From an uncultured Candidatus Saccharibacteria bacterium (GTDB taxonomy: Bacteria; Patescibacteriota; Minisyncoccia; Minisyncoccales; CAYZYK01), in contig CAYZYK010000001.1 of the NCBI GenBank assembly GCA_964482615.1, positions 2,144-66,143 on the forward strand: a stretch of DNA of 64,000 bases, in the 5' to 3' direction. Positions 7,747-58,233 of the stretch are shown here, piece after piece. The notes below the pieces were generated by a model. It was not told the DNA's origin. It worked only from the letters and a program-made list of their open reading frames with translations, and made no database searches. Numbering within the stretch: position 1 is the first letter of the stretch; every line of letters begins with the position of its first letter. Position numbers and translations under genes: made by a program.

Positions 7747-7822
7747 TGGTGCGCGTGGATGGATTTGAACCATCGACCTTTCGCTTATAAGACGAATGCT
7801 CTAACCCCTGAGCTACACGCGC
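7747..7822 (-). tRNA. tRNA with anticodon UAU (AUA-decoding tRNA-Ile), CCA encoded
   Basis: Acceptor GCGCGTG/CACGCGC + ACCA. D-stem GCTC/GAGC. Anticodon stem TTCGT/GCGAA enclosing loop CTTATAA, so positions 34-36 are TAT. T-arm GATGG-TTCAAAT-CCATC; 76 nt. Confidence 0.7.
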
Positions 7823-10800
7823 TTATTTTTTCTTCTTTTTCTTCTTGTTTTTTTGTATTTTCCGATTATATTTTCGAATTCTTCTCTTTCTATAGTTTCT
7901 TTTTCAATTAAAGTTTGAGCTAACTTATTAAGTAGTTTTTTATTTTTCTTTAAAACCTTTGTTGCTTCTTTTTCAGCAGCCTTTATAAATTTACTTATTT
8001 CTTTATCAATCTTAGAAGCTACTTTTTCAGAATAATCTTTTTGTTCTGCCATTTCATTGCCCAAAAATACCATTTCTTCTTCTGATCCGTAGGTTACAGG
8101 CCCTAGAGAAGACATACCATATTTTTTAACCAATTTACGAGCTAATTGAGTTGCTGTCTTAAGGTCGTTTGATGCTCCGGTAGTTATTTCTCCAAACTTT
8201 ATATTCTCAGCACAATATCCACCCAATAAGGTGGTGAGTTCTGCTGAAAATTCAGACTTAGTTTTCATTTTTTTCTCCTCTCTTGGCATTTTCAAAGTAT
8301 AGCCCGCTGCCATGCCCCTGGCAATTATTGATATTTTCCTAACAGGTTCTGCTTTGGGAGAGAAAGTAGAAGCTAAAGCATGTCCTGCCTCGTGAAAAGC
8401 AGCTATTTTCTTTTCTTGCTCAGACAAAACGTGACTTTTTCTTTCGGGTCCCAAGAGAACCTTTTCAATTGATTCTAATAATTCTTCTTGATGAACTTTA
8501 GATTTGTTTCTTTTTGCAGCAAGTATAGCTGCTTCGTTCATTAAATTGGCTAAATCAGCTCCCGAAAATCCTGGAGTTCTTTCTGCTACTTCTCTTAAAT
8601 TACAATCCGAATCTAAAGGTTTTCCTTTAGAATGAATTTTTAATATCTTTTCTCTGTCATTTATATCAGGTAGATTTAAGACCACTCTCCTGTCAAACCT
8701 CCCTGGTCTCAAAAGAGCGGGGTCTAAGACATCGGGTCTGTTCGTTGCTGCAGCAACGATAATAGAAGATTCTCTCTCAAAACCATCCATTTCAGTTAAA
8801 ATCTGATTCAATGTTTGTTCTCTTTCATCGTGACCCCCACCAATTCCAGCTCCTCTTCTTCTGCCAACAGCATCCAGTTCATCAATGAAAACAATGGCTG
8901 GTTGGTTCTTTTTGGCAGTAGAAAATAAATCTCTTACTCTACTGTTGTGCAAAAGAGTTGGTTTTTCTCCACCAAAGAAAGCTTCATTTTGGCAACCACA
9001 AAGATCATAAACATAGCCAGAGTAGGGTCTTTTTGTAACCTTTTTAACAATTGGTTTCTTGAGTTGATTGGGGGAATTTTTAATTTTTCTAAATGGATGA
9101 GAGGTCTTTCCAATTCTAAGAACCCAATAGGTAGTCTGAGGAAGGGGTCTGTCCTTAGTTTTTCTTCCTTTTTTAGTTTTGGCCTCTCTAATACTTGCTT
9201 GTATTCCATGCATTGCACAAAGCCAAGCTAATTCTTTGATAAGTTGATGACTCACAGAACTGACAGTTAGCCTTCCTTCTTGGGTAGTGTATCCATCTCC
9301 TCTATAAAGCCCCTTTAAATAATTTAAAAAGTAATTTTTGGGTAGTTCCCATAGGAATTCAGGAATATGCTTGTGGTGACTACCATTTCCACAATGTTTT
9401 TCAAAAAATTCTCCCAATACTTTACCAAAAAAAGCAATTCTACAACTATTGTCTTCAGTAAAAGTTACATATGGTTCTTGGTTAGTTAATAATTTATTCA
9501 TTAAAGAAATACAATCTTGATGAAGTTTTTTTTCATGGCTGCCAAATATAAATTCTACTCCATATTCAATTTTTCTTCCTTCAGCGGTATAATATCCTAG
9601 AAGTTTCATTAAAGAGGGGGTGGTTTTTATTTCCTGAGGAATTTCTCTTTCCTGATAATTCTTCGCTAACCAAAGGTCCCTAGGTTGATATTTATTTCTT
9701 TGCCAATTGCTGATTGTTGTTTGAGATACTCCAAGTTGGTCAGCTAATTCATGTTGGTAAACTTTTCCTTGTCTAGCTAAAGCAAAACTAAATTTTTCTT
9801 CTAACTCCTCAATCTCAAAATTTTTATTCCATATCGGTAGAACCTTCTTTTTTGTTTTTTTGAATTGATGAGATTTTACTTTGTGGGTTGTTCCAACTCC
9901 AGGCACAAAAGTACTTCTTACCTTGAAAGGTAAATTAACTAGGATATCTCCAGGATTTAAGTCTTTTGCTTTTTTTGGGGTAATAAGATTTCTAGCTCGC
10001 ACAAACACGCTGTGATCACCGGTGGTTTTAATTTTTCCTCCTAAATATTTAATTTCATAAATTTCATCAACTTTATGGCGATAAACACCTTTTATTTGTT
10101 GCCAACAACTTCTTCCAAAAAACTTCTTAGTTGAGTTTTTAGAAGCACTCCCAAATTTTGTATCTAAAGATTTGTATCCTAAAGTTTTTATCCCTATAAC
10201 TGGAATTACATAATCGTCTTTTTTTTGAGGGTAGAATTGATCAACAAGCTCTGAGATTGGCAAAAGCTTGGTCTCGTTTTCAGTTTTAACTAATATTGGA
10301 GTATCACCAGTTACACTGGCTCCGACTCCGACAAATAACTCAATAAATTCAGAACCAGAAATTGAATAAAAGGGTACTTTAGCTTCGTTTGCTACCGCTC
10401 TGGCTAATAAGGTTTTTCCGGTTCCAGGAGCGCCCACCAGTAGTATTCCTTTAGGAATTCTTGCCCCCATTTTTAAATATTTCTTTGGCTTTTTTAAAAA
10501 ATCAACTACCTCTTTTAATTCTTCTTTGGCGTTTTCAAGTCCTGCAACGTCGTCAAAAGTAACCTTTTCTTTAGTTCCGCCCTTGGCCCCAAACAAACGG
10601 GCTTTTGCTTTCGAAAAATCAAGAGCCTGCATAGCTCCACCCTTAGCGCGCCTTAAGAGCAACCAAAAGAAAATTCCGAAGACAGCCAGAGGTAATATTC
10701 CAAAAATTAATAAAGGAAATAACCAAGAACTTAAACTTTCTTTTTTTTCTTCAACCTCAATTGTTAATTGGTTTGATTCTGTTAATTGGTTTAATTTTTC

Positions 10801-11070
10801 TTTTTCGGTCCCATAGGTTACAAGGGCTTCAAACAGGGGAGTGTCTGATTCTTTTCGGGAGATTGCCTTTTCATCATTTTTGTAGAAAACAGTTAATTCT
10901 TCCCCCGCAACAATAATTTTTTTAACCTCTTCTTGATTAATTTTTTTTGCTAATTCTGTTATACTAATCTTATTTTCGGACTCAAAGGGCTGGGCAACTA
11001 AACTAAAAACGCCTCCGATTATGAGAAAAATCAGGATTATGAAAATAAAGTTTTTAATTAATTTATTCAT
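7813..11070 (-). CDS. ftsH: ATP-dependent zinc metalloprotease FtsH, containing a ~458-aa intein between Walker A and Walker B
   Basis: N-terminal TM plus GILLVGAPGTGKTLLARAVANEAKVPFYSISGSEFIELFVGVGA|[intein]|SRVRDLFSTAKKNQPAIVFIDELDAVGRRRG...; zinc site FHEAGHAL; C-terminal protease domain. The stop TAG at 7815-7813 overlaps the 5' end of the adjacent tRNA by ~10 nt. Confidence 0.9.
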   Translation of the reverse strand: MNKLIKNFIFIILIFLIIGGVFSLVAQPFESENKISITELAKKINQEEVKKIIVAGEELTVFYKNDEKAISRKESDTPLFEALVTYGTEKEKLNQLTESNQLTIEVEEKKESLSSWLFPLLIFGILPLAVFGIFFWLLLRRAKGGAMQALDFSKAKARLFGAKGGTKEKVTFDDVAGLENAKEELKEVVDFLKKPKKYLKMGARIPKGILLVGAPGTGKTLLARAVANEAKVPFYSISGSEFIELFVGVGASVTGDTPILVKTENETKLLPISELVDQFYPQKKDDYVIPVIGIKTLGYKSLDTKFGSASKNSTKKFFGRSCWQQIKGVYRHKVDEIYEIKYLGGKIKTTGDHSVFVRARNLITPKKAKDLNPGDILVNLPFKVRSTFVPGVGTTHKVKSHQFKKTKKKVLPIWNKNFEIEELEEKFSFALARQGKVYQHELADQLGVSQTTISNWQRNKYQPRDLWLAKNYQEREIPQEIKTTPSLMKLLGYYTAEGRKIEYGVEFIFGSHEKKLHQDCISLMNKLLTNQEPYVTFTEDNSCRIAFFGKVLGEFFEKHCGNGSHHKHIPEFLWELPKNYFLNYLKGLYRGDGYTTQEGRLTVSSVSHQLIKELAWLCAMHGIQASIREAKTKKGRKTKDRPLPQTTYWVLRIGKTSHPFRKIKNSPNQLKKPIVKKVTKRPYSGYVYDLCGCQNEAFFGGEKPTLLHNSRVRDLFSTAKKNQPAIVFIDELDAVGRRRGAGIGGGHDEREQTLNQILTEMDGFERESSIIVAAATNRPDVLDPALLRPGRFDRRVVLNLPDINDREKILKIHSKGKPLDSDCNLREVAERTPGFSGADLANLMNEAAILAAKRNKSKVHQEELLESIEKVLLGPERKSHVLSEQEKKIAAFHEAGHALASTFSPKAEPVRKISIIARGMAAGYTLKMPREEKKMKTKSEFSAELTTLLGGYCAENIKFGEITTGASNDLKTATQLARKLVKKYGMSSLGPVTYGSEEEMVFLGNEMAEQKDYSEKVASKIDKEISKFIKAAEKEATKVLKKNKKLLNKLAQTLIEKETIEREEFENIIGKYKKTRRKRRKNKRV
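8944..10317 (-). mobile_element. Intein in FtsH (Ser1 ... HN, +1 Ser) with a LAGLIDADG homing-endonuclease domain and an HTH motif
   Basis: Extein sequence FVGVGA / SRVRDLF is contiguous in intein-free FtsH. The insert starts SVTGDTPILVK and ends YVYDLCGCQNEAFFGGEKPTLLHN. Internal motifs are LLGYYTAEGR and YLKGLYRGDGY (LAGLIDADG pair) and HELADQLGVSQTTISNWQRN (HTH). Boundaries were checked at nucleotide level: codon AGT at 10317-10315 and AAC at 8946-8944. Confidence 0.8.
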
Positions 11071-16802: not shown

Positions 16803-17315
16803 ATGCTTAACCCAGAACAGGTTTTAAATAACCTTCAGTTAAAAGCAAATATGTCAGCTACAGAATTTGGTTCTGGAGCTGGAGGATTCAGTATTCCCCT
16901 AGCTAAAAGACTGAGACAGGGAAAGGTTTATGCTTTGGATATTCTAGAAGAGAAACTATCTGCTTTGAAGAATAAAGCAACCTTAGAAAAAATAGCAAAC
17001 ATTGAAACTATAATTTGTAACTTGGAAGCAGAAAAAGGATCTACCCTGCACAGAGAAAGCCAGGACATAGTTTTAATACCTAATATTTTGTTTCAAGCAG
17101 AAGATGAGGAGTCTATGATGAAAGAAGCTAAAAGAATCTTAAAACAAGGAGGTGAACTCCTTGTTTTAGATTGGAAAAAAGAATCTCCGCTTGGTCCCAG
17201 AGAGGGGAGAATTTCAAAAGAAGAAGTTAAAGAAATTGCAGAGAAAATAGGCTTGAAACTAAAGAAGGAATTTTCACCGGGTGATTACCATTATGGTTTG
17301 ATTTTTACAAAATAA
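16803..17315 (+). CDS. Class I SAM-dependent methyltransferase
   Basis: 170 aa; motif I EFGSGAGGFSIPLAK, acidic residue after beta-2 (YALDIL), LVLDW motif. Confidence 0.65.
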   Translation: MLNPEQVLNNLQLKANMSATEFGSGAGGFSIPLAKRLRQGKVYALDILEEKLSALKNKATLEKIANIETIICNLEAEKGSTLHRESQDIVLIPNILFQAEDEESMMKEAKRILKQGGELLVLDWKKESPLGPREGRISKEEVKEIAEKIGLKLKKEFSPGDYHYGLIFTK

Positions 17316-17333
17316 TTAATTTATAATATATTA

Positions 17334-17663
17334 ATGAAAAAATTAATTCTTCTTTTAATAATATTGACCGGTTTATCATTTTTTTCATTTACCGAAGCCG
17401 TTAAAATAAAGAACCCTTTAAATGTTGACACTTTTGACGATCTCATTGATGCAATCGCGGGAATAATTGAATTAATTGTTGGTTCTCTGGCTGTTTTAAT
17501 GTTAATAATTGCTGCGATTTATTTTATTACAGCAGCAGGGGATCTCAACCAGATTAGCCAAGCAAAAACTATGGTAAAATATGCCATAATAGGAGTTATT
17601 ATTGCTTCTATGGCCCGAGCTATAGGGACCGTAGTTGAATCTCTTTTAAAAACAGCTCCCTAA
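17334..17663 (+). CDS. Small secreted two-helix membrane protein, TrbC/VirB2 (T4SS-pilin)-like, array member 1
   Basis: 109 aa; signal peptide then two hydrophobic helices around loop ITAAGDLNQISQAKTMVKYA. Same architecture as members 2-9. Confidence 0.45.
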   Translation: MKKLILLLIILTGLSFFSFTEAVKIKNPLNVDTFDDLIDAIAGIIELIVGSLAVLMLIIAAIYFITAAGDLNQISQAKTMVKYAIIGVIIASMARAIGTVVESLLKTAP

Positions 17664-17774
17664 GTTATTAACAGCGCCCTGTTGATAAGTTTCTTAATAT
17701 CCTCTAAAATATTACAATATAAAACCTAAAGGTCGAAATAAAGATTTTATAAATTACAAAAATAAATATTAATC

Positions 17775-18095
17775 ATGAAAAGAATAATATCTACCTTAAT
17801 TCTCAGCAGTCTATTGGCTTTACCTGTCGTGGCTGCAGCTCAAATTGGAGAACCCTCCCCACCCACTGACATTATTGCTATTCTTCAGACAATAAAATCA
17901 ATAATCTGGGCTGCCTTCACTGTTTTTGCTATCATTATGTTTATTTATGCTGGAATACTTTTCTTTACCGCAGGTGGTGATCCCGAAAAAGCAGCCAAAG
18001 CAAAAAGCGCTGTTATTTTCGGTGTAGCTGGAATAGCAATAGCTGTGTTGGGATATGGAATAGTTCAGATCGTTATGGGTATTATGGGTGCTTAA
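17775..18095 (+). CDS. T4SS-pilin-like small membrane protein, array member 2
   Basis: 106 aa; MKRIISTLILSSLLALPVVAAAQ signal, then helix-loop (FTAGGDPEKAAKAKSAVIFG)-helix. Confidence 0.45.
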   Translation: MKRIISTLILSSLLALPVVAAAQIGEPSPPTDIIAILQTIKSIIWAAFTVFAIIMFIYAGILFFTAGGDPEKAAKAKSAVIFGVAGIAIAVLGYGIVQIVMGIMGA

Positions 18096-18235
18096 TACTG
18101 AATTTAAGCTAATTTTTCTAACAACAATGAATTCTAAGCCATGATTTTGAAGGTGGCTTAGAATTCATTTATTATGTATAATAGATTATAATAAAAGTCG
18201 AGTACCATCATTATAATAAGACACAAAGAAAAATC

Positions 18236-18556
18236 ATGAAAAGAATAATATCTACCTTAATTCTCAGCAGTCTATTGGCTTTACCTGTCGTGGCTGCAGC
18301 TCAAATTGGAGAACCCTCCCCACCCACTGACATTATTGCTATTCTTCAGACAATAAAATCAATAATCTGGGCTGCCTTCACTGTTTTTGCTATCATTATG
18401 TTTATTTATGCTGGAATACTTTTCTTTACCGCAGGCGGTAATCCAGATAGCGTTGCTAAAGCAAAAAGCGCTGTTATCTTTGGAGCAGCAGGAATAGCAA
18501 TAGCTGTGTTGGGATATGGAATAGTTCAGATCGTTATTGGCATTATGGGTGCTTAA
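18236..18556 (+). CDS. T4SS-pilin-like small membrane protein, array member 3. Near-identical to member 2 except in the inter-helix loop.
   Basis: 106 aa; first ~68 codons are DNA-identical to member 2, then GNPDSVAKAKSAVIFGAAG replaces GDPEKAAKAKSAVIFGVAG. Confidence 0.45.
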   Translation: MKRIISTLILSSLLALPVVAAAQIGEPSPPTDIIAILQTIKSIIWAAFTVFAIIMFIYAGILFFTAGGNPDSVAKAKSAVIFGAAGIAIAVLGYGIVQIVIGIMGA

Positions 18557-18714
18557 AAGAGAAGTAACACAGAGAATTCAATTGAAGTTGAATTTGACAA
18601 ATTTCAATTCAAAGATTAAATTTAGAGAATAGAAAATAATTTTAAATTTTTGGTATTCAAAAGGTCGCTAAACCCTGTTAAGGTAAAATTTAAGCTATAA
18701 AAATAAAAGAGAAC

Positions 18715-19041
18715 ATGAAAAGATTACTGTTATTTTCGGTTATTGTTTCTCTTGTGGGATTACCTTTGGTGACGGCTGCTCAAAACCCCCCTGGTTCAGG
18801 TTGGGCGTCAAGCTTTAGTGATATGTTTAATAATGTGATAGCTGAAGTATGGTTGATTTTCGTTGCTCTTGCTATTGTCCTGTTCATTTATGCGGGTGTT
18901 TTGTTTCTGACAGCATCCGGGAATCCAGAAAGAATCACCAAGGCGAAAAGCGCTTTTTTGTGGGGTATAGCTGGTGTTGCAGTGGCTATAATTGCTTTCA
19001 CAATAATTCAACTTGTGGGAAATTTGTTGGGAGCTTATTAA
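18715..19041 (+). CDS. T4SS-pilin-like small membrane protein, array member 4
   Basis: 108 aa; YAGVLFLTASGNPERITKAKSAFLWGIAGVAVAII. Confidence 0.45.
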   Translation: MKRLLLFSVIVSLVGLPLVTAAQNPPGSGWASSFSDMFNNVIAEVWLIFVALAIVLFIYAGVLFLTASGNPERITKAKSAFLWGIAGVAVAIIAFTIIQLVGNLLGAY

Positions 19042-19216
19042 CCAGAGATAAGAGATATAGAATCCCTGTTTAAAAAATTTGTTTTAATAAAGAATGAATA
19101 AGCTCTAATCCATTATAATTTTTGGATTGAGCTTATTTTATTAGACAAGATTTTTCTTTTAAGATAAAATAGAGGAAGCAAAAGGCAGAAATCAAAGATC
19201 TAAATAATATTTTAAG

Positions 19217-19531
19217 ATGAAAAAAATATTGATTACTTTAATATTATTAAGCATCTCAATATTTCCCTTGGGAGCTGAAGCCCAGATTATTATAGGTAAT
19301 ATTACTTGGCCTCAGCTTGTGCTTGGTCTTACAACAGCTATGTGGTCTGTTTTTGTTGGAGTTACAATAATAGCCTTTTTATACGCTGGTATATTATTTC
19401 TTACTGCCTCGGGAGATCCTCAGAAAATCGATAAAGCAAAAAAGGCGGTTATCTGGGGAATTGCTGGAGTAGCAGTAGCTTTTCTTGCTTATACTATAAT
19501 TAATATAGTAGGATATATGTTGGGGGCTTAA
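19217..19531 (+). CDS. T4SS-pilin-like small membrane protein, array member 5
   Basis: 104 aa; YAGILFLTASGDPQKIDKAKKAVIWGIAGVAVAFL. Confidence 0.45.
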   Translation: MKKILITLILLSISIFPLGAEAQIIIGNITWPQLVLGLTTAMWSVFVGVTIIAFLYAGILFLTASGDPQKIDKAKKAVIWGIAGVAVAFLAYTIINIVGYMLGA

Positions 19532-19572
19532 ACCCCTTAAAGTCAAAGAAACTTTAATCTAAAAGATAAAAG

Positions 19573-19884
19573 ATGAAAAAAAACTTATTTCCCATATTTT
19601 GTTTGGTATTTTTAATAATCCCCGCAATCATGTCTGCTGCTGTAGTCAGCAGTGGAAGCTCAAGTTTAGACAAAATAATTATAGGTGTTGTAAATGCGGT
19701 AGCCGCTGTAGCTACTGCAGCAGCGGTTATTAGTCTTCTTTATGCTGCAATACTTTTTCTTACTGCTTCTGGTGAACCAGACAAAATTACAAAAGCAAAA
19801 AAAGCTTTTCTTTGGGGTATAGCTGGTGTAATAATAGCAATTATAGCAAGCTCTATATTTACTATAGTTGGCTATTTTTTATAA
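19573..19884 (+). CDS. T4SS-pilin-like small membrane protein, array member 6
   Basis: 103 aa; YAAILFLTASGEPDKITKAKKAFLWGIAGVIIAII. Confidence 0.45.
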   Translation: MKKNLFPIFCLVFLIIPAIMSAAVVSSGSSSLDKIIIGVVNAVAAVATAAAVISLLYAAILFLTASGEPDKITKAKKAFLWGIAGVIIAIIASSIFTIVGYFL

Positions 19885-19902
19885 AAATAAAAAAACCAAG
19901 AG

Positions 19903-20292
19903 ATGAAAATTAAAAAAACTTTCTTTTTTCTAATCTGTGTTTTTCTTTTCTCTTTGCCTTTTGTAACTAATGGGTTAGATATTCAAGAGACAGCGCCAGG
20001 ACCCAAGCATTGGGCTTTTGTAGAGAGCGGATTGGCTAACATATTGAGTTGGGTTGCCACTATTGTGGTTTTGGGATTTCTTGTTTACGCTGCTATTTTG
20101 TTTGCTATAGCAGCAGGGGAACCAGACAAGATTTCCAAAGCAAAGAAAATGTTTCTTTATGCGATAATAGGAATAGTGGTGATCCTAATAGCGTTTATAA
20201 TTAGAATAATAACAAGCGAAACATTTAAAAACTTTACTTGGGAATTCAATGCTTGGGAGCCTATAAAAGATTTTTTAAAAGGTATTTTTTAG
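19903..20292 (+). CDS. T4SS-pilin-like small membrane protein, array member 7 (with extra C-terminal tail)
   Basis: 129 aa; YAAILFAIAAGEPDKISKAKKMFLYAIIGIVVILI plus C-terminal ETFKNFTWEFNAWEPIKDFLKGIF. Confidence 0.45.
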   Translation: MKIKKTFFFLICVFLFSLPFVTNGLDIQETAPGPKHWAFVESGLANILSWVATIVVLGFLVYAAILFAIAAGEPDKISKAKKMFLYAIIGIVVILIAFIIRIITSETFKNFTWEFNAWEPIKDFLKGIF

Positions 20293-20325
20293 TCTTAATA
20301 AATCTTTAATTTTTTATCTCTAATA

Positions 20326-20667
20326 ATGAAAATTGAAAAATATTTTTCTGTATCTATCCTCCTAATGATTTTTTTACCTTTATTACCCGCTGCAGTCATG
20401 GCAGCTTGGGGAATACAGGATGCACCTACTGCAATAGATAGCTGGAATAAAATAGGTAACGCTATTCTCCTTCCAATTTACGCTATTGCTGTGGCAACAA
20501 TAGTAATCATGTTTTTTTACTCAGCTATTTTGTTTGCTACGGCAGCAGGGGAACCAGACAAGATTTCCAAAGCAAAGAAATCGTTTCTCTGGGGATTAGT
20601 TGCCGTGATTGTTTTGATTATTGTTCCCGTTATAATCACAATAATGAGAGAGATAACAGGCATTTAA
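20326..20667 (+). CDS. T4SS-pilin-like small membrane protein, array member 8
   Basis: 113 aa; YSAILFATAAGEPDKISKAKKSFLWGLVAVIVLII. Confidence 0.45.
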   Translation: MKIEKYFSVSILLMIFLPLLPAAVMAAWGIQDAPTAIDSWNKIGNAILLPIYAIAVATIVIMFFYSAILFATAAGEPDKISKAKKSFLWGLVAVIVLIIVPVIITIMREITGI

Positions 20668-20723
20668 CCTTTAATCAAAAAATGTTAGATTTTTTAAAAA
20701 GATTAACTAAAAGCTATTTAAAT

Positions 20724-21023
20724 ATGAAAAAGACTTTACTCTTTTCAATTATTCTTGTTGTTCTGGTCTTTCCTCTTGTAACTGATGCTGTTGATGTTAC
20801 TCCGATTAAAGAAAAAATAGAAAGCGTTTCGGATGTAGCTTGGACTATTGCTGGTACACTTGCTGTTGTCATGCTTATTTATGCTGGAATTTTATTTGTT
20901 ACAGCAACAGGAGAACCAGAAAAACTAGGGAAAGCAAAAAAAGCTTTCATTTGGGGTATTACGGGATTGATTCTAGCTATTTTAGCTAATACGATAGTAA
21001 GTATGATAGTAGATAATTTATAA
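20724..21023 (+). CDS. T4SS-pilin-like small membrane protein, array member 9. ATG at 20724 (MKKTLLFS...) preferred over the track start at 20682.
   Basis: YAGILFVTATGEPEKLGKAKKAFIWGITGLILAIL. The signal peptide is only sensible from the internal ATG. Confidence 0.45.
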   Translation: MKKTLLFSIILVVLVFPLVTDAVDVTPIKEKIESVSDVAWTIAGTLAVVMLIYAGILFVTATGEPEKLGKAKKAFIWGITGLILAILANTIVSMIVDNL

Positions 21024-21034
21024 GCAAAAATTCT

Positions 21035-21115
21035 GTCCCTGTGGCGGAATGGCAGACGCGCGTGGTTTAGGACCACGTCCCGCGAGGGGTGCAGGTTCGA
21101 ATCCTGCCGGGGACA
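21035..21115 (+). tRNA. tRNA-Leu (anticodon UAG), long variable arm
   Basis: Acceptor GTCCCTG/CGGGGAC (one G-U), D-arm TGGCGGAATGGCAGACGCG, anticodon stem CGTGG/CCACG with loop TTTAGGA, variable TCCCGCGAGGGGT, T-arm GCAGG-TTCGAAT-CCTGC. Confidence 0.8.
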
Positions 21116-21146
21116 CAAAAAACCCAGTTAACTAACTGGGTTTTTA
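21116..21146. terminator. Bidirectional terminator hairpin (ACCCAGTTA/TAACTGGGT flanked by A6 and T5)
   Basis: Perfect 9-bp inverted repeat between tRNA-Leu (+) and the hsp20 gene (-). Confidence 0.55.
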
Positions 21147-21165
21147 GAATTGAGAATTCTCATTT

Positions 21166-21582
21166 CTATTTCACATCTATCTTCTGTTTTTCTTCTTTTT
21201 GAAGTTTGGGTAATTCTACTTTGAGGATTCCATTTTCCATTGAAGCATCTATCTTTGAAGTATTTACGTTTTGGGGTACTATTATTTTTCTTGAAAAAGG
21301 ACCCCAATAGCATTCTTTGTAAAAATATTTTTTATCATCTTGTTGAACGGGATTTTCTCTACTTCCTTTTATAATCAACATATCTTTTTCAACAGAAACA
21401 TTAATATCCTTTGTTGATATTCCCCCAACAGCAGCTAAAACAACAAAGCTTGAGTCAGTCTCATAAACATCGACAGCTAATTTTCCTTCTGGCTGAAGCC
21501 AGGACTTTTCTTTCCCTCCCTCTTTCTTACCGGAGGAAAGTTTCTTTTTTGGTTTTGATTTTGTTTTCTTCGAAAAAAACAT
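21166..21582 (-). CDS. Hsp20/alpha-crystallin family small heat-shock protein
   Basis: 138 aa; alpha-crystallin domain AVDVYETDSSFVVLAAVGGISTKDINVSVEKDMLIIKGSRE...ASMENGILKVELPK, with a basic N-terminal tail. Confidence 0.8.
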   Translation of the reverse strand: MFFSKKTKSKPKKKLSSGKKEGGKEKSWLQPEGKLAVDVYETDSSFVVLAAVGGISTKDINVSVEKDMLIIKGSRENPVQQDDKKYFYKECYWGPFSRKIIVPQNVNTSKIDASMENGILKVELPKLQKEEKQKIDVK

Positions 21583-21585
21583 AAT

Positions 21586-22308
21586 TTATTTTATTTTACA
21601 AACACTTTTTATTTTTTTAAGTTTCTTTAATGCCCGAGAAACAAAGAAAGCTAAAAACACAATAATGGCTACGGGGATAATAACCTTTAATGCTCCCTTA
21701 CTCTCTATTATAGAAAAATTATAAGCTCCATGCAAAAAAACAGCTAATAAAATTCCAGAGAAAAGAAACCTTTTTCTTTTTTTAATATTCAAAAAAGAAA
21801 GAGCCAAAAAGTAACCTAGGAGAGCAGAAGATAAAGCATGTAAAAAAGTAGCTGAGATGAATCGGAATACAGCCAATCCCACAGTTTGTAATAAATAAGG
21901 ATAATTAGTTAAGAAAAGAAAAATATTCTCTAAAGCGGCAAAACCAAGCCCAGCGATTATCATATAAAGCATAACATCTATTGGTTCATCAAGTTCAGAA
22001 TTTCTGAGAACTTTCCATTTAACTACTAGATATTTTAATATTTCTTCTGTGAAAGCAACCACCACAAACCAATCAAAAACCACAATTAAAGGAATTAATA
22101 AATCTAATTTGAATATGTTTTTGAATTCTACCAATGAAAATTCAACTAATATTTCTATTATTGCCGCAGGAATAGCTATTACCATCCCATAAAAAAATAT
22201 TTTAAGAATCATCCCGTTTGATTCTGGATGAACATCTGCCCTTAAATAAAATAAGAGCCAGATTATGCTGGGTAAAATCCCCAAAAGAATGTAAAAAAGA
22301 TAATCCAT
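21586..22308 (-). CDS. PrsW-family intramembrane metalloprotease (CPBP-related)
   Basis: 240 aa polytopic; conserved EExxK (FTEEILKYL), FxxxH (FLHALSSALLGYF) and HxxxN (FLHGAYNF) motifs. Confidence 0.7.
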   Translation of the reverse strand: MDYLFYILLGILPSIIWLLFYLRADVHPESNGMILKIFFYGMVIAIPAAIIEILVEFSLVEFKNIFKLDLLIPLIVVFDWFVVVAFTEEILKYLVVKWKVLRNSELDEPIDVMLYMIIAGLGFAALENIFLFLTNYPYLLQTVGLAVFRFISATFLHALSSALLGYFLALSFLNIKKRKRFLFSGILLAVFLHGAYNFSIIESKGALKVIIPVAIIVFLAFFVSRALKKLKKIKSVCKIK

Positions 22309-25850: not shown

Positions 25851-26540
25851 ATGACCCCCAGAAATAAAAGCAAATATAAAAAGGCGTTTAATCTACGAAT
25901 TAAAGGAAAGAGTTATAGAGAAATAAAAGGAGCTTTGGGAATTCCCAAAAGCACGCTTAGTAGTTGGTTTAAAGGTCTGGAATTGCCTAAATCTGCCCAA
26001 AAGATTCTTAAAGAAAAAGACAAGAAGGGCAGAAAAAAATTATTAGAATTTAATAAAAAACGCAGCTAGAGAATCTATCTTGAAAATCAGAGAATAAGAA
26101 AAAATGTCGCTAACAGAATCAAAGATTTTTCAGAATATGAACTGTTGTTGGTTGGAAGCGCTCTTTATTGGGCAGAAGGATATAAAAAACAACAAAATAC
26201 AAATTCGTCTTGTGTTTGTTTCGTTAATTCTGATCCGGCAATGATTCTTTTGTTTTTGCGATTTCTTCGAAGGATTATCAAAGTTCCCGAAAAAAGAATA
26301 AGGCTATCAATTCAAACACACCCAAATCTTAATAAGAAATCTATTATTAATTTTTGGGCAGGTATAACTAACATTTCTCAAGAACGGATTAGAACTAAAA
26401 GGTGTAAAAGTCGGGCAAGTAAGGGGAAATGTCCCAGAAACACCCTTCCTTATGGTACAGTAGACGTAAGAGTAAGTAAGCGTCAATATTTTTTTAAGAT
26501 TAGGGGATGGATTGATGGAATTAAAAAATTCAATACCTGA
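25851..26540 (+). pseudogene. HTH-containing homing-endonuclease-like gene starting 2 nt after tRNA-Glu, interrupted by a single in-frame TAG. ORFs 25851..26069 and 26145..26540 are in the same frame.
   Basis: N-terminal HTH (SYREIKGALGIPKSTLSSW). TAG at 26067-26069. Read-through gives ...EFNKKRS*RIYLENQRIRKNVANRIKDFSEYELLLVGSALYWAEGYK... (LAGLIDADG-like ...LVGS....EG). 229 aa in total. Family assignment is tentative. Confidence 0.45.
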
Positions 26541-28107
26541 AATAAATTGGTTGTTTGTTTTCTCTTATCATCCTATGTCTAAAAAATACTTAGAAGTTGG
26601 TCATGCTCCAGACTTTGAAGATCCAAAAAGAAAAAACCTTTATCGTTTCTTTGAAATAATTCCTGGGGTTATAAGTTTGGGAACCTTAATTGGGGTTCTC
26701 GTTTTTTCTTGGATTTTGCCGTCATTTGTTGCTATTTTTATAATTCTCTTTTGTTTCTTTTATCTTTGTAAAATCTGTTATTTCTCTATCCACCAAATAG
26801 CAACCTATATTAAAATGAAGAGGAATTTGAAAACTAATTGGCAAAAAAAGCTTAAAGAATTGAAAGACAAAGACTGGAAAGATATTTATCATTTAATAGT
26901 TTTACCAACCTACAAAGAGAAACCAGAGATAATAAAAAGTAGCTTAAATGCTTTGATTGGTTCTGATCATCCTAAAGATAAAATGATTATAGTTCTTGGT
27001 CTTGAAGAAAGAGCAGGTAAAGAAGCTCAGGAAAGGGCAGATGAAATAAAAAAAGAATATGAAGATAGTTTCTATCAGTTCTTAATTACAGTTCACCCAA
27101 AAGATATTCCAGGTGAGCTTGCAGGAAAAGGATCTAATGAAAAGTGGGCTGTAAGAGAAGCGAAAGAAAAAATAATAGACAAATTAAATATTCCTTATAA
27201 AAACATTATCGTTTCAAGTTTTGATATTGACACTAAAGTTTATCCTCGATACTTTTCTTGCTTAACTTATCATTTTTTAACAGTTGAAAATCCACAAAAA
27301 ACAAGTTACCAGCCTGTTCCTGTTTATAACAATAATATTTGGAAAGCTCCTGCTTTCAGTAGATTGGTTGCTACTTCAAACACTTTCTGGCAGATGGTTC
27401 AACAAGGAAGATCAGAGAAACTAGTAACTTATTCTTCCCATTCTATGCCTTTCTGGATATTTGAAGAGGTAGGTTATCCTAACAACATGGTTTCTGATGA
27501 CTCAAGAATTTTTTGGAAATCTTACCTTTATTACAATGGAGATTACAAAGTCGTACCCTTGTATTATCCTGTTTCAATGGATGCTGTTTTGGCTGATAAT
27601 CTTTGGAAGACAATAATAAATCAATACAAACAGCAGAGAAGATGGGCCTGGGGGTGTGAAGAAATACCCTATTTGATATATGGGTTTTTAAAGAACAAAA
27701 AAATTTCTCTTCCAGAAAAATTAAAACATTTGTTTACCATATTAGATGGTTACTGGTCTTGGGCAACATCCACCCTTTTAATATTTATTTTGGGTTGGTT
27801 GCCTTTAATTTTAGGGGGTGAGAAATTCAGTAGAAGTTTACTTTCTTACAACTTACCAAGATTAACAGGGAGGATTATGACTCTTGCTATGATCGGTATG
27901 ATTGTCTCTGCTATTTTAAGTATGCTCCTTTTGCCTCCTCGGCCAGAAGAGACAAGTAAAACGAAATATTTATTTTTATTATTACAATGGGTTCTTTTGC
28001 CTGTTACTTTGATCGTTTTTGGTTCTTTTCCTGCTTTAGATGCCCAAATCCATTTAATGTTGGGAAAATATATGGGATTTTGGGTTACAGAAAAGGCTAG
28101 AAAATAG
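26512..28107 (+). CDS. Membrane-embedded family-2 glycosyltransferase (processive, QxxRW type). True start may be the internal ATG near 26575.
   Basis: 531 aa; multiple TM helices flanking a cytoplasmic GT-A domain (DxD-like SSFDID, QQRRWAWG). Confidence 0.65.
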   Translation: MMELKNSIPEINWLFVFSYHPMSKKYLEVGHAPDFEDPKRKNLYRFFEIIPGVISLGTLIGVLVFSWILPSFVAIFIILFCFFYLCKICYFSIHQIATYIKMKRNLKTNWQKKLKELKDKDWKDIYHLIVLPTYKEKPEIIKSSLNALIGSDHPKDKMIIVLGLEERAGKEAQERADEIKKEYEDSFYQFLITVHPKDIPGELAGKGSNEKWAVREAKEKIIDKLNIPYKNIIVSSFDIDTKVYPRYFSCLTYHFLTVENPQKTSYQPVPVYNNNIWKAPAFSRLVATSNTFWQMVQQGRSEKLVTYSSHSMPFWIFEEVGYPNNMVSDDSRIFWKSYLYYNGDYKVVPLYYPVSMDAVLADNLWKTIINQYKQQRRWAWGCEEIPYLIYGFLKNKKISLPEKLKHLFTILDGYWSWATSTLLIFILGWLPLILGGEKFSRSLLSYNLPRLTGRIMTLAMIGMIVSAILSMLLLPPRPEETSKTKYLFLLLQWVLLPVTLIVFGSFPALDAQIHLMLGKYMGFWVTEKARK

Positions 28108-34339: not shown

Positions 34340-34407
34340 TTAAAGTATAGGTTGGATATTTAATCTAGATTATTATATAATGAGTAAAGTAATAAAATAA
34401 ACAAACT

Positions 34408-34959
34408 ATGGCTCCTTGGTATGATTTTCTCTACAAACTAAAGACTAAAGAATATTGGTGGCTAGATTTAGTTCTTTATTTTGTTTTATCTTTGTTAGTT
34501 GCTTCGGTTATTTGTTATTTTCTCTTTGGTCTTAAAATCTCCTTTCAAAAAAAACATCTCCAAGAATTAGACCAGAAAATAGTAGAAACTGGAACGGAAC
34601 AACAAAAGGACCTGGAACAGCAGGTTTTTCGTTTTCAAAGAAAACTAGAAGATTTTACTGTTATATTTGAGGACCATAAAATATCCTCAAACCTATTTGC
34701 TTTAATTGAAAGTTCAACCATTCCTAATGTTTGGTTTTCAAGCTTTGGCCTCAGCTCCCAAGGTTATAGTGTAAGAGTAAGAGGGGACACAGATGATTTC
34801 CAAAGTTTAGCTCGCCAGATTTTTTATTTTGAAGAAAATAAATTAATTAAGGAAGTAAATACATTATCTACAACCTTAACAGAAGATGGAAATATTAATT
34901 TTAGTTTGAGCCTTTTGTTTGAACCGAATCTGTTAAGTCAATTTAAAGGAACAGAATAG
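34408..34959 (+). CDS. pilN: PilN-like bitopic pilus alignment protein
   Basis: 183 aa; single N-terminal TM, coiled coil, periplasmic domain. Placed between pilM and a PilO-like gene. Confidence 0.5.
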   Translation: MAPWYDFLYKLKTKEYWWLDLVLYFVLSLLVASVICYFLFGLKISFQKKHLQELDQKIVETGTEQQKDLEQQVFRFQRKLEDFTVIFEDHKISSNLFALIESSTIPNVWFSSFGLSSQGYSVRVRGDTDDFQSLARQIFYFEENKLIKEVNTLSTTLTEDGNINFSLSLLFEPNLLSQFKGTE

Positions 34960-35565: not shown

Positions 35566-35568
35566 TCT

Positions 35569-39322: not shown

Positions 39323-39327
39323 AGTTT

Positions 39328-57213: not shown

Positions 57214-58233
57214 ATGCCAAAAAAGAAAACTAAAAACAAAGAAGAAAAAGAAAAAGAGTTAAAAGAAACCCTGGAAGGAATAAAAAGTAAATTTGGAGAA
57301 GGGGCTTTAATGAAACTTAAAGAAATACAACCAGTTGATGTTGATGCAATTCCTACAGGATCTATTTCTTTAGATCTTGCTTTGGGAGTGGGGGGAGTTC
57401 CCCGCGGAAGAGTAATAGAAGTTTTTGGTCCTGAAGCGTCTGGCAAAACAACCCTAGCTTTACATATTTTAGCTGAAGCTCAAAAGAAAGGGGGCGTAGT
57501 AGCTTTTATTGATGCTGAAAATGCTCTAGATCCTGATTATGCTAGAAAGATTGGGGTAAGAGTTGACGATATTTTAATTTCCCAGCCCGATTCAGGCGAA
57601 CAGGGATTACAAATTGTTGAAGCTTTGGTTCGTTCAGGTACAATTGATATAATTGTGGTTGATTCTGTTGCTGCTTTAACCCCCAAAGCAGAAATTGAAG
57701 GAGAAATAGGGGATCAACAAATCGGTCTTCAGGCTAGATTGATGAGTCAGGCTTGTCGTATGCTCTCTAAAATAATTTCTGATACAAAGACAACAGTTTT
57801 ATTTCTCAACCAAACCAGGATGAAAATAGGAGTTATGTTTGGTAATCCAGAAACCACCCCAGGAGGATTAGCTTTAAAGTTCTATTCTTCAGTAAGAATT
57901 AATTTGAGAAGAAGAGCTCAAATTAAACATAAAGATGAGATTATAGGTAATAGAGTGAAAGCTAAAATTGTGAAAAATAAAGTAGCTCCACCCTTCAAAA
58001 CAGCGGAATTCGACATTTATTATAACGAGGGTATTTCCAGAACAGGGGATATTATTAGAGCAGGGCTGGAGACAGGGATTCTTAAACAGTCAGGTAGCTG
58101 GTACAAATATGAAAAAAAGAAATTAGGTCAGGGGATGGCAGGAGCTAAGAAATTTTTGAAAGAAAACTCAAAGATAGCAAAAGAAATAGAAAAAAGAATT
58201 TGGCAGGAATCCCAGCAAACACAAGAAGTATAA
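57214..58233 (+). CDS. recA: Recombinase RecA (no intein)
   Basis: 339 aa; [27 protein letters not shown]2 loop region. K/E-rich N-terminal tail. Confidence 0.95.

What the first reader, a model, noticed from the sequence alone, without database searches (positions are those of the whole stretch)
17775..18556. Recent tandem duplication inside the pilin-like array: two genes share ~200 identical leading nucleotides and differ almost only in the exposed inter-helix loop; a perfect 13-bp inverted repeat lies between them
Members 2 (17775..18095) and 3 (18236..18556) are DNA-identical from the ATG through codon ~68 (…ILFFTAGG). They then differ at a handful of positions concentrated in the loop (GDPEKAAKAKSAVIFGVAG versus GNPDSVAKAKSAVIFGAAG) and one C-terminal residue. 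Their upstream regions are unrelated.

The spacer contains GAATTCTAAGCCA-N12-TGGCTTAGAATTC (18129-18166). This is consistent with gene duplication followed by loop-focused divergence, or gene conversion, acting on a surface-exposed epitope.
Basis: seen in the sequence. Interest (0 to 1): 0.55.

Follow-up and report, generated by a model that had tools for sequence, protein, structure and literature searches.

The report
Old pilin twins kept alike by gene conversion
Two neighbouring genes for small secretion-system pilins in an uncultured ultrasmall (CPR/Patescibacteria) bacterium are an old duplicate pair, not a recent one: copy-and-paste recombination keeps them almost identical except for a short old patch at the turn between the two helices, which is a tidy but fairly ordinary case of concerted evolution.

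Summary
Genes A (17775-18095) and B (18236-18556) are identical for 204 nt (-4 to +200). They then differ at 16 positions, 14 of them within 57 nt. A perfect inverted repeat lies between them; it is 16+16 nt, not 13.

- **The pair is old.** The same nine-gene VirB2-like (PF18895) pilin array sits at the same chromosomal place in a relative (L001, ValRS 79% identical), with the same spacer hairpin. There the two copies are DNA-identical to each other for 296 nt but only about 76% identical to A/B. A third relative (L023) has a similar pair.
- **The divergent patch is old.** Its synonymous divergence is saturated (pS 0.57), like ortholog divergence, against 0 of 48 synonymous sites in the 5' part (Fisher p = 9e-7).
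- **No positive selection.** dN/dS in the patch is about 0.14.

This is concerted evolution by gene conversion around an old, unconverted island. The island carries two turn types, DPEK and NPDS. NPDS is rare and lacks a lysine that is nearly invariant in the family; it recurs in L023 and in distant syntenic loci.

By homology with VirB2, the turn faces the pilus lumen or the cytoplasm, not the outside. The inverted repeat is a conserved terminator-like RNA hairpin. Independent k=31 assemblies break exactly at the repeat edges, which argues against an assembly artefact.

The parts
17334..17663 (+). Array member 1, a PF18895 pilin of a distinct, conserved orthologue type. It lies directly after the methyltransferase gene.
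   Evidence: Pfam 33.1 bits. Orthologues are in L001, L023, L026, L028 and L030.
17682..17710 (+). Sigma-70-like promoter candidate for gene A (TTGATA-17-TAAAAT).
   Evidence: Consensus scan only. The promoter count in the region is not above shuffles, so this is an inference.
17728..17736 (+). AAAGGTCGA leader motif, 47 nt before the ATG of gene A.
   Evidence: 21 hits on the pilin strand against 1 on the other strand. About 2.1 per strand are expected in 198 kb of window plus unique loci.
17775..18095 (+). Gene A (array member 2). A VirB2-like T4SS pilin precursor of 106 aa with turn type GGDPEK.
   Evidence: The AlphaFold2 model shows a signal-peptide helix at 2-23, a helix at 33-65, a turn at 66-69 and a helix at 70-103.
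17771..17974 (+). 5' conversion tract, copy in A. These 204 nt are identical to 18232-18435.
   Evidence: 0 differences across 48 synonymous sites.
17973..18029 (+). Old unconverted island in A (codons 67-85), covering the turn and the N-terminal cap of helix 2. It differs from B at 14 of 57 nt.
   Evidence: pS 0.57, dN/dS about 0.14; 89% identical to the L001 orthologues but 75% identical to B.
18030..18095 (+). 3' near-identical tract in A, with 2 differences from B (18077 and 18080).
   Evidence: pS 0.06.
18126..18169 (+). Perfect inverted repeat forming a terminator-like RNA hairpin, 30 nt after the stop codon of A. It is followed by UUUAUUAU.
   Evidence: It is conserved at the orthologous place in L001, with one A-U to G-C change and one A-U to G-U change.
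18147..18175 (+). Sigma-70-like promoter candidate for gene B (TTGAAG-17-TATTAT). It overlaps the 3' arm of the hairpin.
   Evidence: Consensus scan only.
18193..18201 (+). AAAAGTCGA, a one-mismatch copy of the leader motif, 43 nt before the ATG of gene B.
18236..18556 (+). Gene B (array member 3). A VirB2-like pilin precursor of 106 aa with turn type GGNPDS, which lacks the family-wide lysine.
18232..18435 (+). 5' conversion tract, copy in B.
18434..18490 (+). Old unconverted island in B (codons 67-85).
18715..21023 (+). Array members 4-9, six further PF18895 pilin genes that are 25-50% identical to A/B.
20110..20148 (+). A 39-nt exact match between member 7 and member 8 (20542-20580). It lies inside a 78-nt tract of 91% identity that covers their turn; the flanks are about 45% identical. 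This is a second conversion tract in the array.
   Evidence: (family D2).
57214..58233 (+). recA, encoding the homologous-recombination enzyme needed for gene conversion.
   Evidence: Pfam RecA, E = 1e-126.

Best explanation
A and B are two old, separately transcribed paralogues in a nine-gene array of VirB2-like (PF18895) secretion-system pilin genes. The array sits on the chromosome of a CPR/Patescibacteria bacterium.

The duplication predates the split of this genome from at least two related lineages. The near-identity of A and B is maintained by non-reciprocal homologous recombination between the copies, that is, by gene conversion (concerted evolution).
- A very recent tract homogenised positions -4 to +200.
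- A slightly older tract, or the other end of the same event, homogenised the last 66 nt.

Between the two tracts, a 57-nt island encoding the helix-helix turn was not converted. It still carries the old paralogue-specific sequences.
- A has the family-typical G-D-P-E-K turn.
- B has a rare G-N-P-D-S turn that lacks the nearly invariant lysine.

The inverted repeat between the genes is the terminator-like or 3'-stabilising RNA hairpin of gene A. Gene B has its own promoter-like site and leader motif.

Shown: old age of the pair, mosaic structure, purifying selection on the island, conservation of the hairpin.

Inferred: RecA-dependent conversion as the mechanism. Selection as the reason the island persists. 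A lumen- or cytoplasm-facing position of the turn. The roles of promoter and terminator.
For: **1. Synteny.** L001 (GCA_964507665.1) has gyrA-methyltransferase-9 pilins-HSP20-PrsW-ValRS, like the window. Its members 2 and 3 share a 296-nt exact run and 98% aa identity, yet are only 72-77% aa and about 75% nt identical to A/B. Flanking proteins are 68-79% identical between the two genomes.

**2. Orthologous spacer.** The spacer between the two copies is orthologous in both genomes, with the same hairpin.

**3. Mosaic divergence.**
- Codons 1-66: 0 of 198 nt differ.
- Codons 67-85: 14 of 57 nt differ, pS 0.57, dS about 1.08. W-versus-L001 orthologues have dS of 0.9-1.0.
- Fisher test on synonymous sites, 0/48 against 8/14: p = 8.9e-7.

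**4. Island relationships.** In the island, A is 89% identical to its L001 orthologues but only 75% identical to B. No other array member is a better donor for B's island; all are 65% or less.

**5. The same turn pair in L023.** L023 (ValRS 72% identical to the window's) has a pair b2/b4 that is 87% aa identical and shares a 71-nt exact run. The pair differs at the same turn in the same way, SGDPEKVA against GGNPDSMA.

**6. Rarity of NPDS.** GNPDS occurs in only 2 of 100 pilins from the arrays examined and in 4 of 121 clade-profile hits. The position is K or R in 102 of those 121. GNPDS is also the turn of the only A/B-type gene in the distant syntenic loci L028/L029.

**7. A second tract in the same array.** Members 7 and 8 share another short conversion tract.

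**8. Recombination genes.** recA and recG are in the window.

**9. Read-level support.** Logan contigs of SRR7048220 and SRR7048218 end at 17800 and start at 18508. These are exactly the positions predicted for a k=31 graph branching at the edges of a two-copy repeat.
Against: - Only three genomes of this small clade carry a pair, so the timing and direction of conversion rest on few lineages.
- The orthology of the NPDS turn between the window and L023 rests on three or four residues. Synonymous sites there are saturated, and the nucleotide identity of B's island to b4 is no higher than to b2 (63% each). Convergence is therefore not excluded.
- L001 lost NPDS entirely, so selection for keeping both turn types is not universal.
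- L026 has a single A-type gene (DPEK), and its position in the species tree is unresolved.
- Reads were not available, so the linkage of each island to its flanks is not directly phased.
- No expression data exist for the promoters, the leader motif or the hairpin.
Confidence: 0.85

Rival explanations
1. First reader's reading. A recent tandem duplication was followed by rapid, selection-driven divergence of an exposed loop (diversifying selection on an epitope).
For: Differences are tightly clustered at the turn, and five of the six replacements lie in codons 69-84. Pilin paralogue arrays are discussed as host-adaptation or antigenic-variation devices (PMC12102498).
Against: - Eight of the 16 differences are synonymous. 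Patch pS is 0.57 against 0 in the 5' 198 nt, and dN/dS is about 0.14.
- The pair and its spacer are present in L001 and L023.
- The turn is the most conserved part between orthologues: A versus a2 has 0 replacements in the island, against dN 0.22 in the 5' part.
- The VirB2-type loop faces the lumen.
Confidence: 0.03
2. The two copies were homogenised over their whole length. B's island was then re-introduced from outside, either by homologous recombination with DNA from another strain or from an unseen paralogue elsewhere in the genome. These bacteria carry type IV pili and are probably naturally competent.
For: - The island is bounded on both sides by near-identical tracts, as expected for a short imported patch.
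- A type IV pilus cluster is present in the window.
- NPDS-type pilins exist in other lineages.
Against: - No donor was found. The best match to B's island outside A is the L001 orthologues at 79%, and the NPDS genes of other lineages are only 53-63% identical in the island.
- The equivalent DPEK/NPDS pair in L023 is explained more simply by retention.
- The 3' tract has 2 differences against 0 in the 5' tract, which fits two conversion events of different age.
Confidence: 0.09
3. Assembly artefact. Two strain alleles of a single gene were stitched in tandem, or a repeat was mis-resolved by the assembler.
For: A 204-nt exact repeat exceeds usual k-mer sizes and is near read length, so which island goes with which flank could in principle be swapped.
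Against: - The same tandem arrangement is seen in independent assemblies of other organisms from other projects: L001 from SRP141376 and L023 from JGI 3300022699.
- The unique 140-nt spacer has an orthologue in L001.
- Logan contigs of two runs break exactly at 17800 and 18508, the predicted branch points of a true repeat with two left and two right contexts.
- Both proteins are called on one 72.9-kb NCBI contig.
Confidence: 0.02
4. The inverted repeat is a recombination or inversion site (invertase or shufflon-like switch), or the pair is the template/variable repeat pair of a diversity-generating retroelement.
For: Perfect 16-nt arms lie between two near-identical genes. DGRs are common in CPR genomes (own knowledge).
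Against: - The arms are 12 nt apart, so the repeat is a hairpin rather than the ends of an invertible segment. It is conserved with pair-preserving changes in L001, one of them G-U, which favours an RNA on the gene strand.
- Similar hairpins with U-tracts follow A-type genes in L023 and L026 and follow member 4 in the window.
- The A/B differences are not adenine-specific in either direction.
- No recombinase or reverse transcriptase appeared among the window ORFs scanned. Not every small ORF was scanned.
Confidence: 0.01

Closest known systems
VirB2-like pilin gene arrays of Patescibacteria (Quinonero-Coronel et al. 2025, PMC12102498; the essential six-pilin cluster of Southlakia epibionticum, Wang et al. 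2023, as summarised in PMC12857230)
   Same: - Tandem array of 2-11 small PF18895/PF04956 pilin genes in a CPR genome.
- Each gene has a signal peptide and two hydrophobic helices.
- Members are mostly very divergent: the mean is about 40% here by local alignment and 25% in the survey.
   Different: - The survey reports a maximum within-array identity of 54%. Here one pair is 94% identical, the L001 pair 98% and the L023 pair 87%, each with long exact DNA runs. Concerted evolution inside such arrays was not described there.
- This array is not next to virB4 or virD4. None was found among the window's ORFs of 500 aa or more that have a Pfam match; one 531-aa ORF (26512-28107) has no match.
- It occupies a conserved housekeeping position, gyrA-methyltransferase ... 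HSP20-PrsW-ValRS.
Tandem trwL (virB2) and trwJIH copies of the Bartonella Trw type IV secretion system (Nystedt et al. 2008, Mol Biol Evol 25:287, 'Diversifying selection and concerted evolution...', cited in PMC2883598)
   Same: - Tandemly amplified VirB2-family pilin genes.
- Recombination between the copies makes orthology assignment difficult.
- Copy number varies between species.
   Different: - In Bartonella the copies are reported to diversify under selection at surface components. Here the only divergent patch is under purifying selection (dN/dS about 0.14) and, by homology, faces the lumen.
- The organisms differ: a diderm pathogen there, a monoderm-like CPR bacterium here.
- I did not read the 2008 paper itself, only its citation and summary.
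Gene conversion between duplicate bacterial genes such as tufA/tufB of Salmonella and E. coli (own knowledge, not checked here)
   Same: RecA-type non-reciprocal recombination keeps two functional paralogues nearly identical over long evolutionary times. Paralogues are more alike than orthologues.
   Different: Here the copies are adjacent (461 nt apart) and only 321 nt long. A defined internal island escapes conversion.
Neisseria pilE/pilS antigenic variation
   Same: Gene conversion between pilin gene copies produces mosaic pilin genes.
   Different: - That system uses promoterless partial silent cassettes that donate to one expression locus, and it varies surface-exposed regions of a type IV pilin.
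- Here both copies are complete, each with a start codon, promoter-like site and terminator-like hairpin.
- The protein family is unrelated (VirB2-like, not type IV pilin).
- Conversion here removes variation rather than creating it.

Membership tests
T4SS pilin, VirB2/TrbC-like (Pfam PF18895 / PF04956) | Match to the family profile at or above the curated cut-off | tested here: met
   - A scores 31.9 bits against a cut-off of 26.6.
- B scores 25.2 bits, just below the cut-off, but is 94% identical to A.
- Seven of the nine array members are at 31.9 bits or more.
- Member 9 also matches PF04956 TrbC at 30.7 bits against a cut-off of 27.9.
T4SS pilin, VirB2/TrbC-like (Pfam PF18895 / PF04956) | Small precursor with an N-terminal signal peptide and two long hydrophobic helices joined by a short polar, positively charged turn | tested here: met
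   - The AlphaFold2 model has mean pLDDT 76. It shows helices at 2-23 (signal peptide), 33-65 and 70-103, with a turn at 66-69.
- The turn region has net charge +1 in both A and B.
- Foldseek against the PDB gave no significant hit; simple helical hairpins are not discriminated.
T4SS pilin, VirB2/TrbC-like (Pfam PF18895 / PF04956) | Genetic association with T4SS machinery (VirB4, VirB6, VirD4) | tested here: not met
   - No VirB4 or VirD4 was found among the window's ORFs of 500 aa or more. One 531-aa ORF (26512-28107) has no Pfam match.
- The rest of the genome was not available.
- In the published survey the pilin gene was near virB4 in 1135 of 1948 assemblies, so many lie elsewhere.
T4SS pilin, VirB2/TrbC-like (Pfam PF18895 / PF04956) | Polymerises into an extracellular pilus | not testable with these tools
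   No pilus of a Patescibacteria VirB2-like protein was found described in the papers read.
Concerted evolution by gene conversion between paralogues | Paralogues within a genome are more similar to each other than to their positional orthologues in other genomes | tested here: met
   Within genomes: A-B 95% nt, a2-a3 98.7% nt. Between genomes: A/B versus a2/a3 74-77% nt.
Concerted evolution by gene conversion between paralogues | The duplication predates the divergence of the genomes compared (orthologous flanks or spacer) | tested here: met
   - Same gene order and same spacer hairpin in L001.
- In the island, A is 89% identical to a2/a3 against 75% to B.
Concerted evolution by gene conversion between paralogues | Mosaic similarity with abrupt borders and heterogeneous synonymous divergence along the gene | tested here: met
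   - pS is 0 over 48 sites, then 0.57 over 14 sites, then 0.06 over 16 sites.
- Fisher p = 8.9e-7; run-length P is about 5e-6.
Concerted evolution by gene conversion between paralogues | Homologous recombination machinery is present | tested here: met
   recA is at 57214-58233 (E = 1e-126). recG is at 28109-30214.
Intrinsic (Rho-independent) terminator | Stable stem-loop just downstream of a stop codon, followed by a U-tract | tested here: inconclusive
   - The stem is 17 bp, -23.1 kcal/mol, and starts 30 nt after the stop codon.
- The tail is UUUAUUAU, not a clean U-run.
- The stem is AU-rich and the loop is 10-12 nt, so the consensus scan (loop 3-8) did not list it.
- Equivalent hairpins with better U-tails follow A-type genes in L023 and L026.
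Intrinsic (Rho-independent) terminator | Structure conserved through pair-preserving substitutions | tested here: met
   - Compared with the window, L001 has one A-U to G-C change and one A-U to G-U change.
- In L001 the sense strand folds at -23.9 kcal/mol and the antisense strand at -19.9 kcal/mol.
- This rests on only one comparison genome.
Pilin antigenic-variation cassette system (pilE/pilS type) | Silent, promoterless partial copies that donate to a single expressed locus | tested here: not met
   Both copies are full-length ORFs, each with a start codon, a promoter-like site and the leader motif.
Diversity-generating retroelement target | Template/variable repeat pair that differs only at adenines of the template, with a reverse transcriptase nearby | tested here: not met
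   The differing bases are a mixture of all four nucleotides in both copies. No RT was seen among the scanned ORFs.

The most novel reading that the evidence does not exclude
Selection actively protects the 57-nt island from homogenisation, because the two turn types do different jobs. One type is DPEK, with the near-invariant lysine. The other is NPDS, which lacks it.

Under this reading, gene conversion keeps the helix packing surfaces of A and B identical so that both subunits fit into one filament or one assembly machine. The lumen- or cytoplasm-facing turn is kept in two forms. The forms could differ in lipid or cargo contact, or in recognition by the extraction ATPase.

This would imply a two-component VirB2-like filament in CPR bacteria, with a division of labour that has persisted since before the split of the window and L023 lineages.

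A related novel element is the AAAGGTCG leader motif. It may be a shared expression signal for filament subunits, covering both VirB2-like pilins and the type IV pilus major pilin.
Probability: 0.22. Interest if true: 0.55.

Novelty: new member of a known kind. Interest (0 to 1): 0.33.

Why it matters
VirB2-like pilin arrays are a hallmark of CPR/Patescibacteria. In the one species tested genetically, the T4SS gene cluster, whose locus carries a six-pilin array, is essential for epibiotic growth. Why there are so many copies is unknown.

The published survey describes the copies as uniformly divergent, with at most 54% identity. This locus shows that recombination between array members also occurs. 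It can erase divergence (L001), leave mosaics (the window and L023), and move short patches between distant members (members 7 and 8).

This matters for three reasons.
- Orthology and copy-number inferences in these arrays can be misled by conversion.
- Near-identical repeats of this size fragment short-read assemblies, so such pairs are probably under-counted in MAG surveys.
- The one segment that resists conversion points to the helix-helix turn, and to its conserved lysine, as a functionally discriminating site worth mutating.

The finding is a clean example rather than a new principle.

Tried and rejected
- **Exact-protein look-ups.** Look-ups of A, B and P0001 found no contig on record. 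The relatives were reached through P0002, P0003, P0007 and P0008 and through window member 1.
- **Genome collection scan.** It returned only L001 (as L002) and one distant array. The clade is rare.
- **Metagenome scan.** It returned only arrays of 47% identity or less. These were useful for statistics on the turn and the motif, but not for dating.
- **Structure and sequence comparison to the PDB.** No informative hit, because helical hairpins are too simple.
- **Rfam.** Nothing at the hairpin or in the spacers.
- **Terminator consensus scan.** It did not list the hairpin because the loop is longer than 8 nt.
- **Donor search for B's island.** No candidate among the other array members; all are 65% identical or less.
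- **DGR-type adenine-specific mutation pattern.** Rejected.
- **Invertible segment or recombination site at the inverted repeat.** Rejected because the arm spacing is only 12 nt and the hairpin is conserved.
- **L026 as an outgroup to polarise DPEK versus NPDS.** Rejected. Methyltransferase identities do not place it outside the W/L001/L023 group.
- **Taxonomy below phylum level.** Not resolved. The L001 record is labelled 'Candidatus Saccharibacteria', but the nearest named pilin is from 'Candidatus Staskawiczbacteria'.
Full report
**1. What is there**

The finding lies in a run of nine small genes (17334-21023, + strand). Their products match Pfam PF18895 'T4SS_pilin'; member 9 also matches PF04956 TrbC/VirB2.

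- The array sits between a methyltransferase gene (16803-17315, downstream of gyrA) and tRNA-Leu, HSP20, PrsW and ValRS.
- The rest of the window is housekeeping: IF-2 and FtsH with inteins, RpoB/C, LigA, FtsK, RecA and RecG. There is also a type IV pilus cluster.
- G+C is about 33%.
- The closest relative is a MAG labelled 'uncultured Candidatus Saccharibacteria bacterium'. The organism is therefore a CPR/Patescibacteria bacterium. I could not fix the class.

**2. Check of the observation**

Genes A (17775-18095) and B (18236-18556) are each 321 nt.

- They are identical from 4 nt before the ATG to gene nt 200, a run of 204 nt.
- They differ at 16 positions between nt 201 and 306. Fourteen of these lie within codons 67-85.
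- Eight differences are synonymous codon changes. Eight nucleotide changes give six replacements: D69N, E71D, K72S, A73V, V84A, M101I.
- The flanks do not align.
- This distribution is far from random. P is about 5e-6 for an identical run of 200 nt or more, and 0 of 200,000 simulations placed 14 or more differences in 57 nt.

The inverted repeat is real and longer than reported. Its arms are 16 nt each (18126-18141 and 18154-18169), perfectly complementary, 12 nt apart.

**3. The duplication is old**

Locus L001 (GCA_964507665.1) has the same gene order and also nine pilin genes.

- Flanking proteins are 68-79% identical to those of the window.
- Its members 2 and 3 are identical in DNA for 296 nt, from the ATG to about codon 110.
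- They are nevertheless only 72-77% identical in protein, and about 75% in DNA, to A and B.
- The spacer between them is orthologous to the window's spacer and contains the same hairpin.

A more distant locus, L023 (JGI 3300022699, ValRS 72% identical), has six pilin genes at the same place. Three of them (b2, b3, b4) belong to the A/B clade. b2 and b4 are 87% identical and share a 71-nt exact run. b3 and b4 share a 41-nt exact run.

Paralogues that are more alike within each genome than positional orthologues are between genomes, with orthologous spacers, define concerted evolution. They do not fit a recent duplication.

**4. The divergent patch is old and constrained**

Nei-Gojobori counts for A versus B:

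| Region | Differences | pS | Other |
|---|---|---|---|
| Codons 1-66 | 0 of 198 nt (48 synonymous sites) | 0 | |
| Codons 67-85 | 14 of 57 nt | 0.57 (dS about 1.08) | dN 0.154, dN/dS about 0.14 |
| Codons 86-106 | 2 of 63 nt | 0.06 | |

- Window-versus-L001 orthologues have dS of about 0.9-1.0 across the gene. The patch is therefore as diverged at silent sites as the two genomes are.
- The contrast in synonymous differences, 0/48 against 8/14, gives Fisher p = 8.9e-7.
- In the patch, A is 89% identical to the L001 genes, with no replacements, but only 75% identical to B.
- The patch is thus an unconverted remnant of an old paralogue difference, under purifying selection. The 5' 204 nt were homogenised very recently.
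- Between genomes, the turn is the most conserved part of the protein. The N-terminal part of the mature protein and helix 1 are the fastest-evolving part (dN 0.22). That fast-evolving part is exactly what is kept identical within a genome.

**5. Two turn types**

A has GGDPEK and B has GGNPDS.

- In L023, b2 has SGDPEK and b4 has GGNPDS. That pair differs in the same way at the same place.
- Across 100 pilins from the arrays fetched here, the turn follows G-[DEN]-P-x-K. Only B and b4 have GNPDS.
- Among 121 proteins found with the clade profile, the position is K in 95 and R in 7. GNPDS occurs four times.
- Two of those four are from distant genomes. The one whose locus I examined (P0087; loci L028/L029) is the single A/B-type gene at the same syntenic position, methyltransferase-pilin-pilin-HSP20. 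The context of the other (P0103, a 967-nt contig) was not examined.
- A related GNPEN variant occupies the syntenic position in L030.
- NPDS is therefore a recurrent, old, lysine-less turn type, not drift in a new copy. L001 has lost it: both of its copies are DPEK.
- Whether the window and L023 inherited NPDS from a common ancestor or converged cannot be settled. The evidence is three or four residues, and silent sites are saturated. I favour inheritance.
- The net charge of the turn is the same in A and B.
- The replacements cost B 6.7 bits against the Pfam profile, which puts it just under the cut-off.

**6. Where the turn sits**

The AlphaFold2 model (pLDDT 76) shows a signal-peptide helix, then helices 33-65 and 70-103 joined by a turn at 66-69. 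The A/B replacements at 69-73 are therefore at the turn and the first turn of helix 2.

By homology, and by the positive-inside rule for the membrane-inserted form, the turn faces the cytoplasm before assembly and the lumen after it. This is an inference. The 'surface-exposed epitope' idea is not supported.

**7. The inverted repeat**

- As RNA on the gene strand it forms a 17-bp stem (-23.1 kcal/mol, z = -6.7). It starts 30 nt after the stop codon of A and is followed by UUUAUUAU.
- The L001 orthologue keeps the stem with one A-U to G-C change and one A-U to G-U change. It folds better on the sense strand (-23.9) than on the antisense strand (-19.9).
- Hairpins with U-tails also follow b2 in L023, the single A-type gene in L026, and member 4 in the window.
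- It is best read as the terminator-like or 3'-stabilising hairpin of gene A.
- The consensus terminator scan missed it because of its long loop, so terminator function remains inferred.
- Nothing suggests a recombination role.

**8. Separate transcription units**

Promoter-like sites precede both A (17682-17710) and B (18147-18175). In both, a motif AAAGGTCGA (AAAAGTCGA for B) starts 17 nt after the -10-like hexamer and lies 47 / 43 nt before the ATG. A, B and member 4 thus look like monocistronic units. Members 5-9 are tightly packed and lack the motif.

**9. Other conversion tracts**

Members 7 and 8 have aligned flanks only about 45% identical in DNA. Yet they share a 78-nt tract of 91% identity with a 39-nt exact core (20110-20148 = 20542-20580) covering their turn. 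Exchange between array members is therefore not limited to A and B, and in that pair it homogenises the turn rather than sparing it. recA and recG are present.

**10. Artefact check**

- Both proteins are called on one 72.9-kb NCBI contig.
- Logan contigs are built with k=31 (own knowledge of that resource).
- A contig from SRR7048220 ends at window 17800, which is 17771 + 29.
- Contigs from SRR7048220 and SRR7048218 start at 18508, which is 18538 - 30.
- One of these contigs ends at 20139, which is 20109 + 30.
- These are exactly the de Bruijn branch points expected if the reads contain two left contexts and two right contexts for the A/B repeat, and likewise for the 39-nt repeat of members 7 and 8.
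- Together with the same arrangement in unrelated assemblies (L001, L023), this makes an artefact very unlikely.
- Direct phasing of each island with its flanks still needs reads.

**11. Comparison with what is known**

- VirB2-like pilin arrays of 2-11 genes are known in Patescibacteria. The survey reports a within-array identity of 25% on average and 54% at most (PMC12102498).
- In Southlakia epibionticum the T4SS gene cluster was shown to be essential, and its locus carries six VirB2-like pilin genes (PMC12857230).
- The pairs seen here are 94%, 98% and 87% identical. L016 also has a pair at 87% and L004 one at 76%. All lie outside the published range. Such pairs would tend to be broken or collapsed in short-read MAGs.
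- Concerted evolution of tandem virB2-family genes is known from the Bartonella Trw system (Nystedt et al. 2008, cited in PMC2883598).
- Gene conversion between bacterial duplicates is classical (tufA/tufB, own knowledge).
- The present case is therefore a new member of a known kind. The only mildly unusual feature is the persistent island with two old turn types.

**12. Verdict**

- The 'recent duplication / exposed epitope' reading is rejected.
- The gene-conversion alternative is accepted with confidence of about 0.85.
- Interest is modest (0.33). The case is clean, gives a useful caution for surveys of these arrays, and points to the turn lysine as a functional site.

Noticed in passing
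window 17728-17735, 18193-18200 (1 mismatch), 18660-18667, 40603-40610; L001 9496 and 10400; L023 5423 and 6386; L028 992; L030 4968; many other loci: An 8-mer, AAAGGTCG, lies 11-90 nt (mostly 28-67 nt) upstream of the ATG of one to three pilin genes per array. It is usually before the second gene.
- It occurs 21 times on the pilin strand and once on the other strand in 198 kb. About 2.1 per strand are expected.
- It starts 17 nt after the -10-like hexamer of both A and B.
- It also precedes the type IV pilus major pilin gene (40633-41139, N_methyl motif).

It may be a 5'-UTR or promoter-proximal element of filament-subunit genes. No Rfam match.
   Followed up: partly
window 20081-20156 and 20513-20588: Array members 7 and 8 have aligned flanks only about 45% identical in DNA, but share a 78-nt tract of 91% identity with a 39-nt exact core. 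The tract covers the end of helix 1, the turn and the start of helix 2 (AAGEPDKISKAKK). This is a second, short gene-conversion tract. Here it homogenises the turn rather than sparing it.
   Followed up: partly
window 33275-44671: A complete-looking type IV pilus cluster:
- PilM (33275-34339)
- PilB-like ATPase (36022-37746)
- PilT-like ATPase (38258-39322)
- PilC (39328-40542)
- major pilin with N-methylation motif (40633-41139)
- prepilin peptidase (41222-42040)
- three further N_methyl pilin-like genes (42045-43745)
   Followed up: partly
window 150-2288 and 7813-11070; L001 4717-8565; L023 319-4431: Inteins with LAGLIDADG domains interrupt IF-2 and FtsH in the window. GyrA carries an intein in L001 and L023 (1282 and 1370 aa) but not in the window (823 aa) or in L026 and L030. 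Intein presence therefore varies among close relatives.
   Followed up: no
L028/L029, L030/L031, L026, L023, L001 versus window 16803-22308: The position methyltransferase-[pilin array]-HSP20-PrsW is conserved across distantly related CPR genomes. The array ranges from 2 to 9 genes. In L030 the first pilin is a 274-aa protein with a long Cys-rich N-terminal extension.
   Followed up: partly
window 19293 and 19312 (in array member 5) versus L024: The Logan contig of run SRR7048218 differs from the window at two positions (T to C at each) over 1641 nt. The contig of SRR7048220 is identical to the window. This is low-level population variation between samples.
   Followed up: no
window 26512-28107 (+) and 43754-44671 (+): Two sizeable ORFs (531 aa and 305 aa) have no Pfam match. 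The 531-aa ORF has a positional counterpart in L001 (18616-20175), also without a Pfam match.
   Followed up: no
L016 2672-3438; L004 4995-5726: Other, unrelated pilin arrays from metagenomes also contain unusually similar neighbouring pairs: 87% aa with a 50-nt exact run in L016, and 76% aa with a 69-nt exact run in L004. Conversion within PF18895 arrays may therefore be widespread.
   Followed up: no
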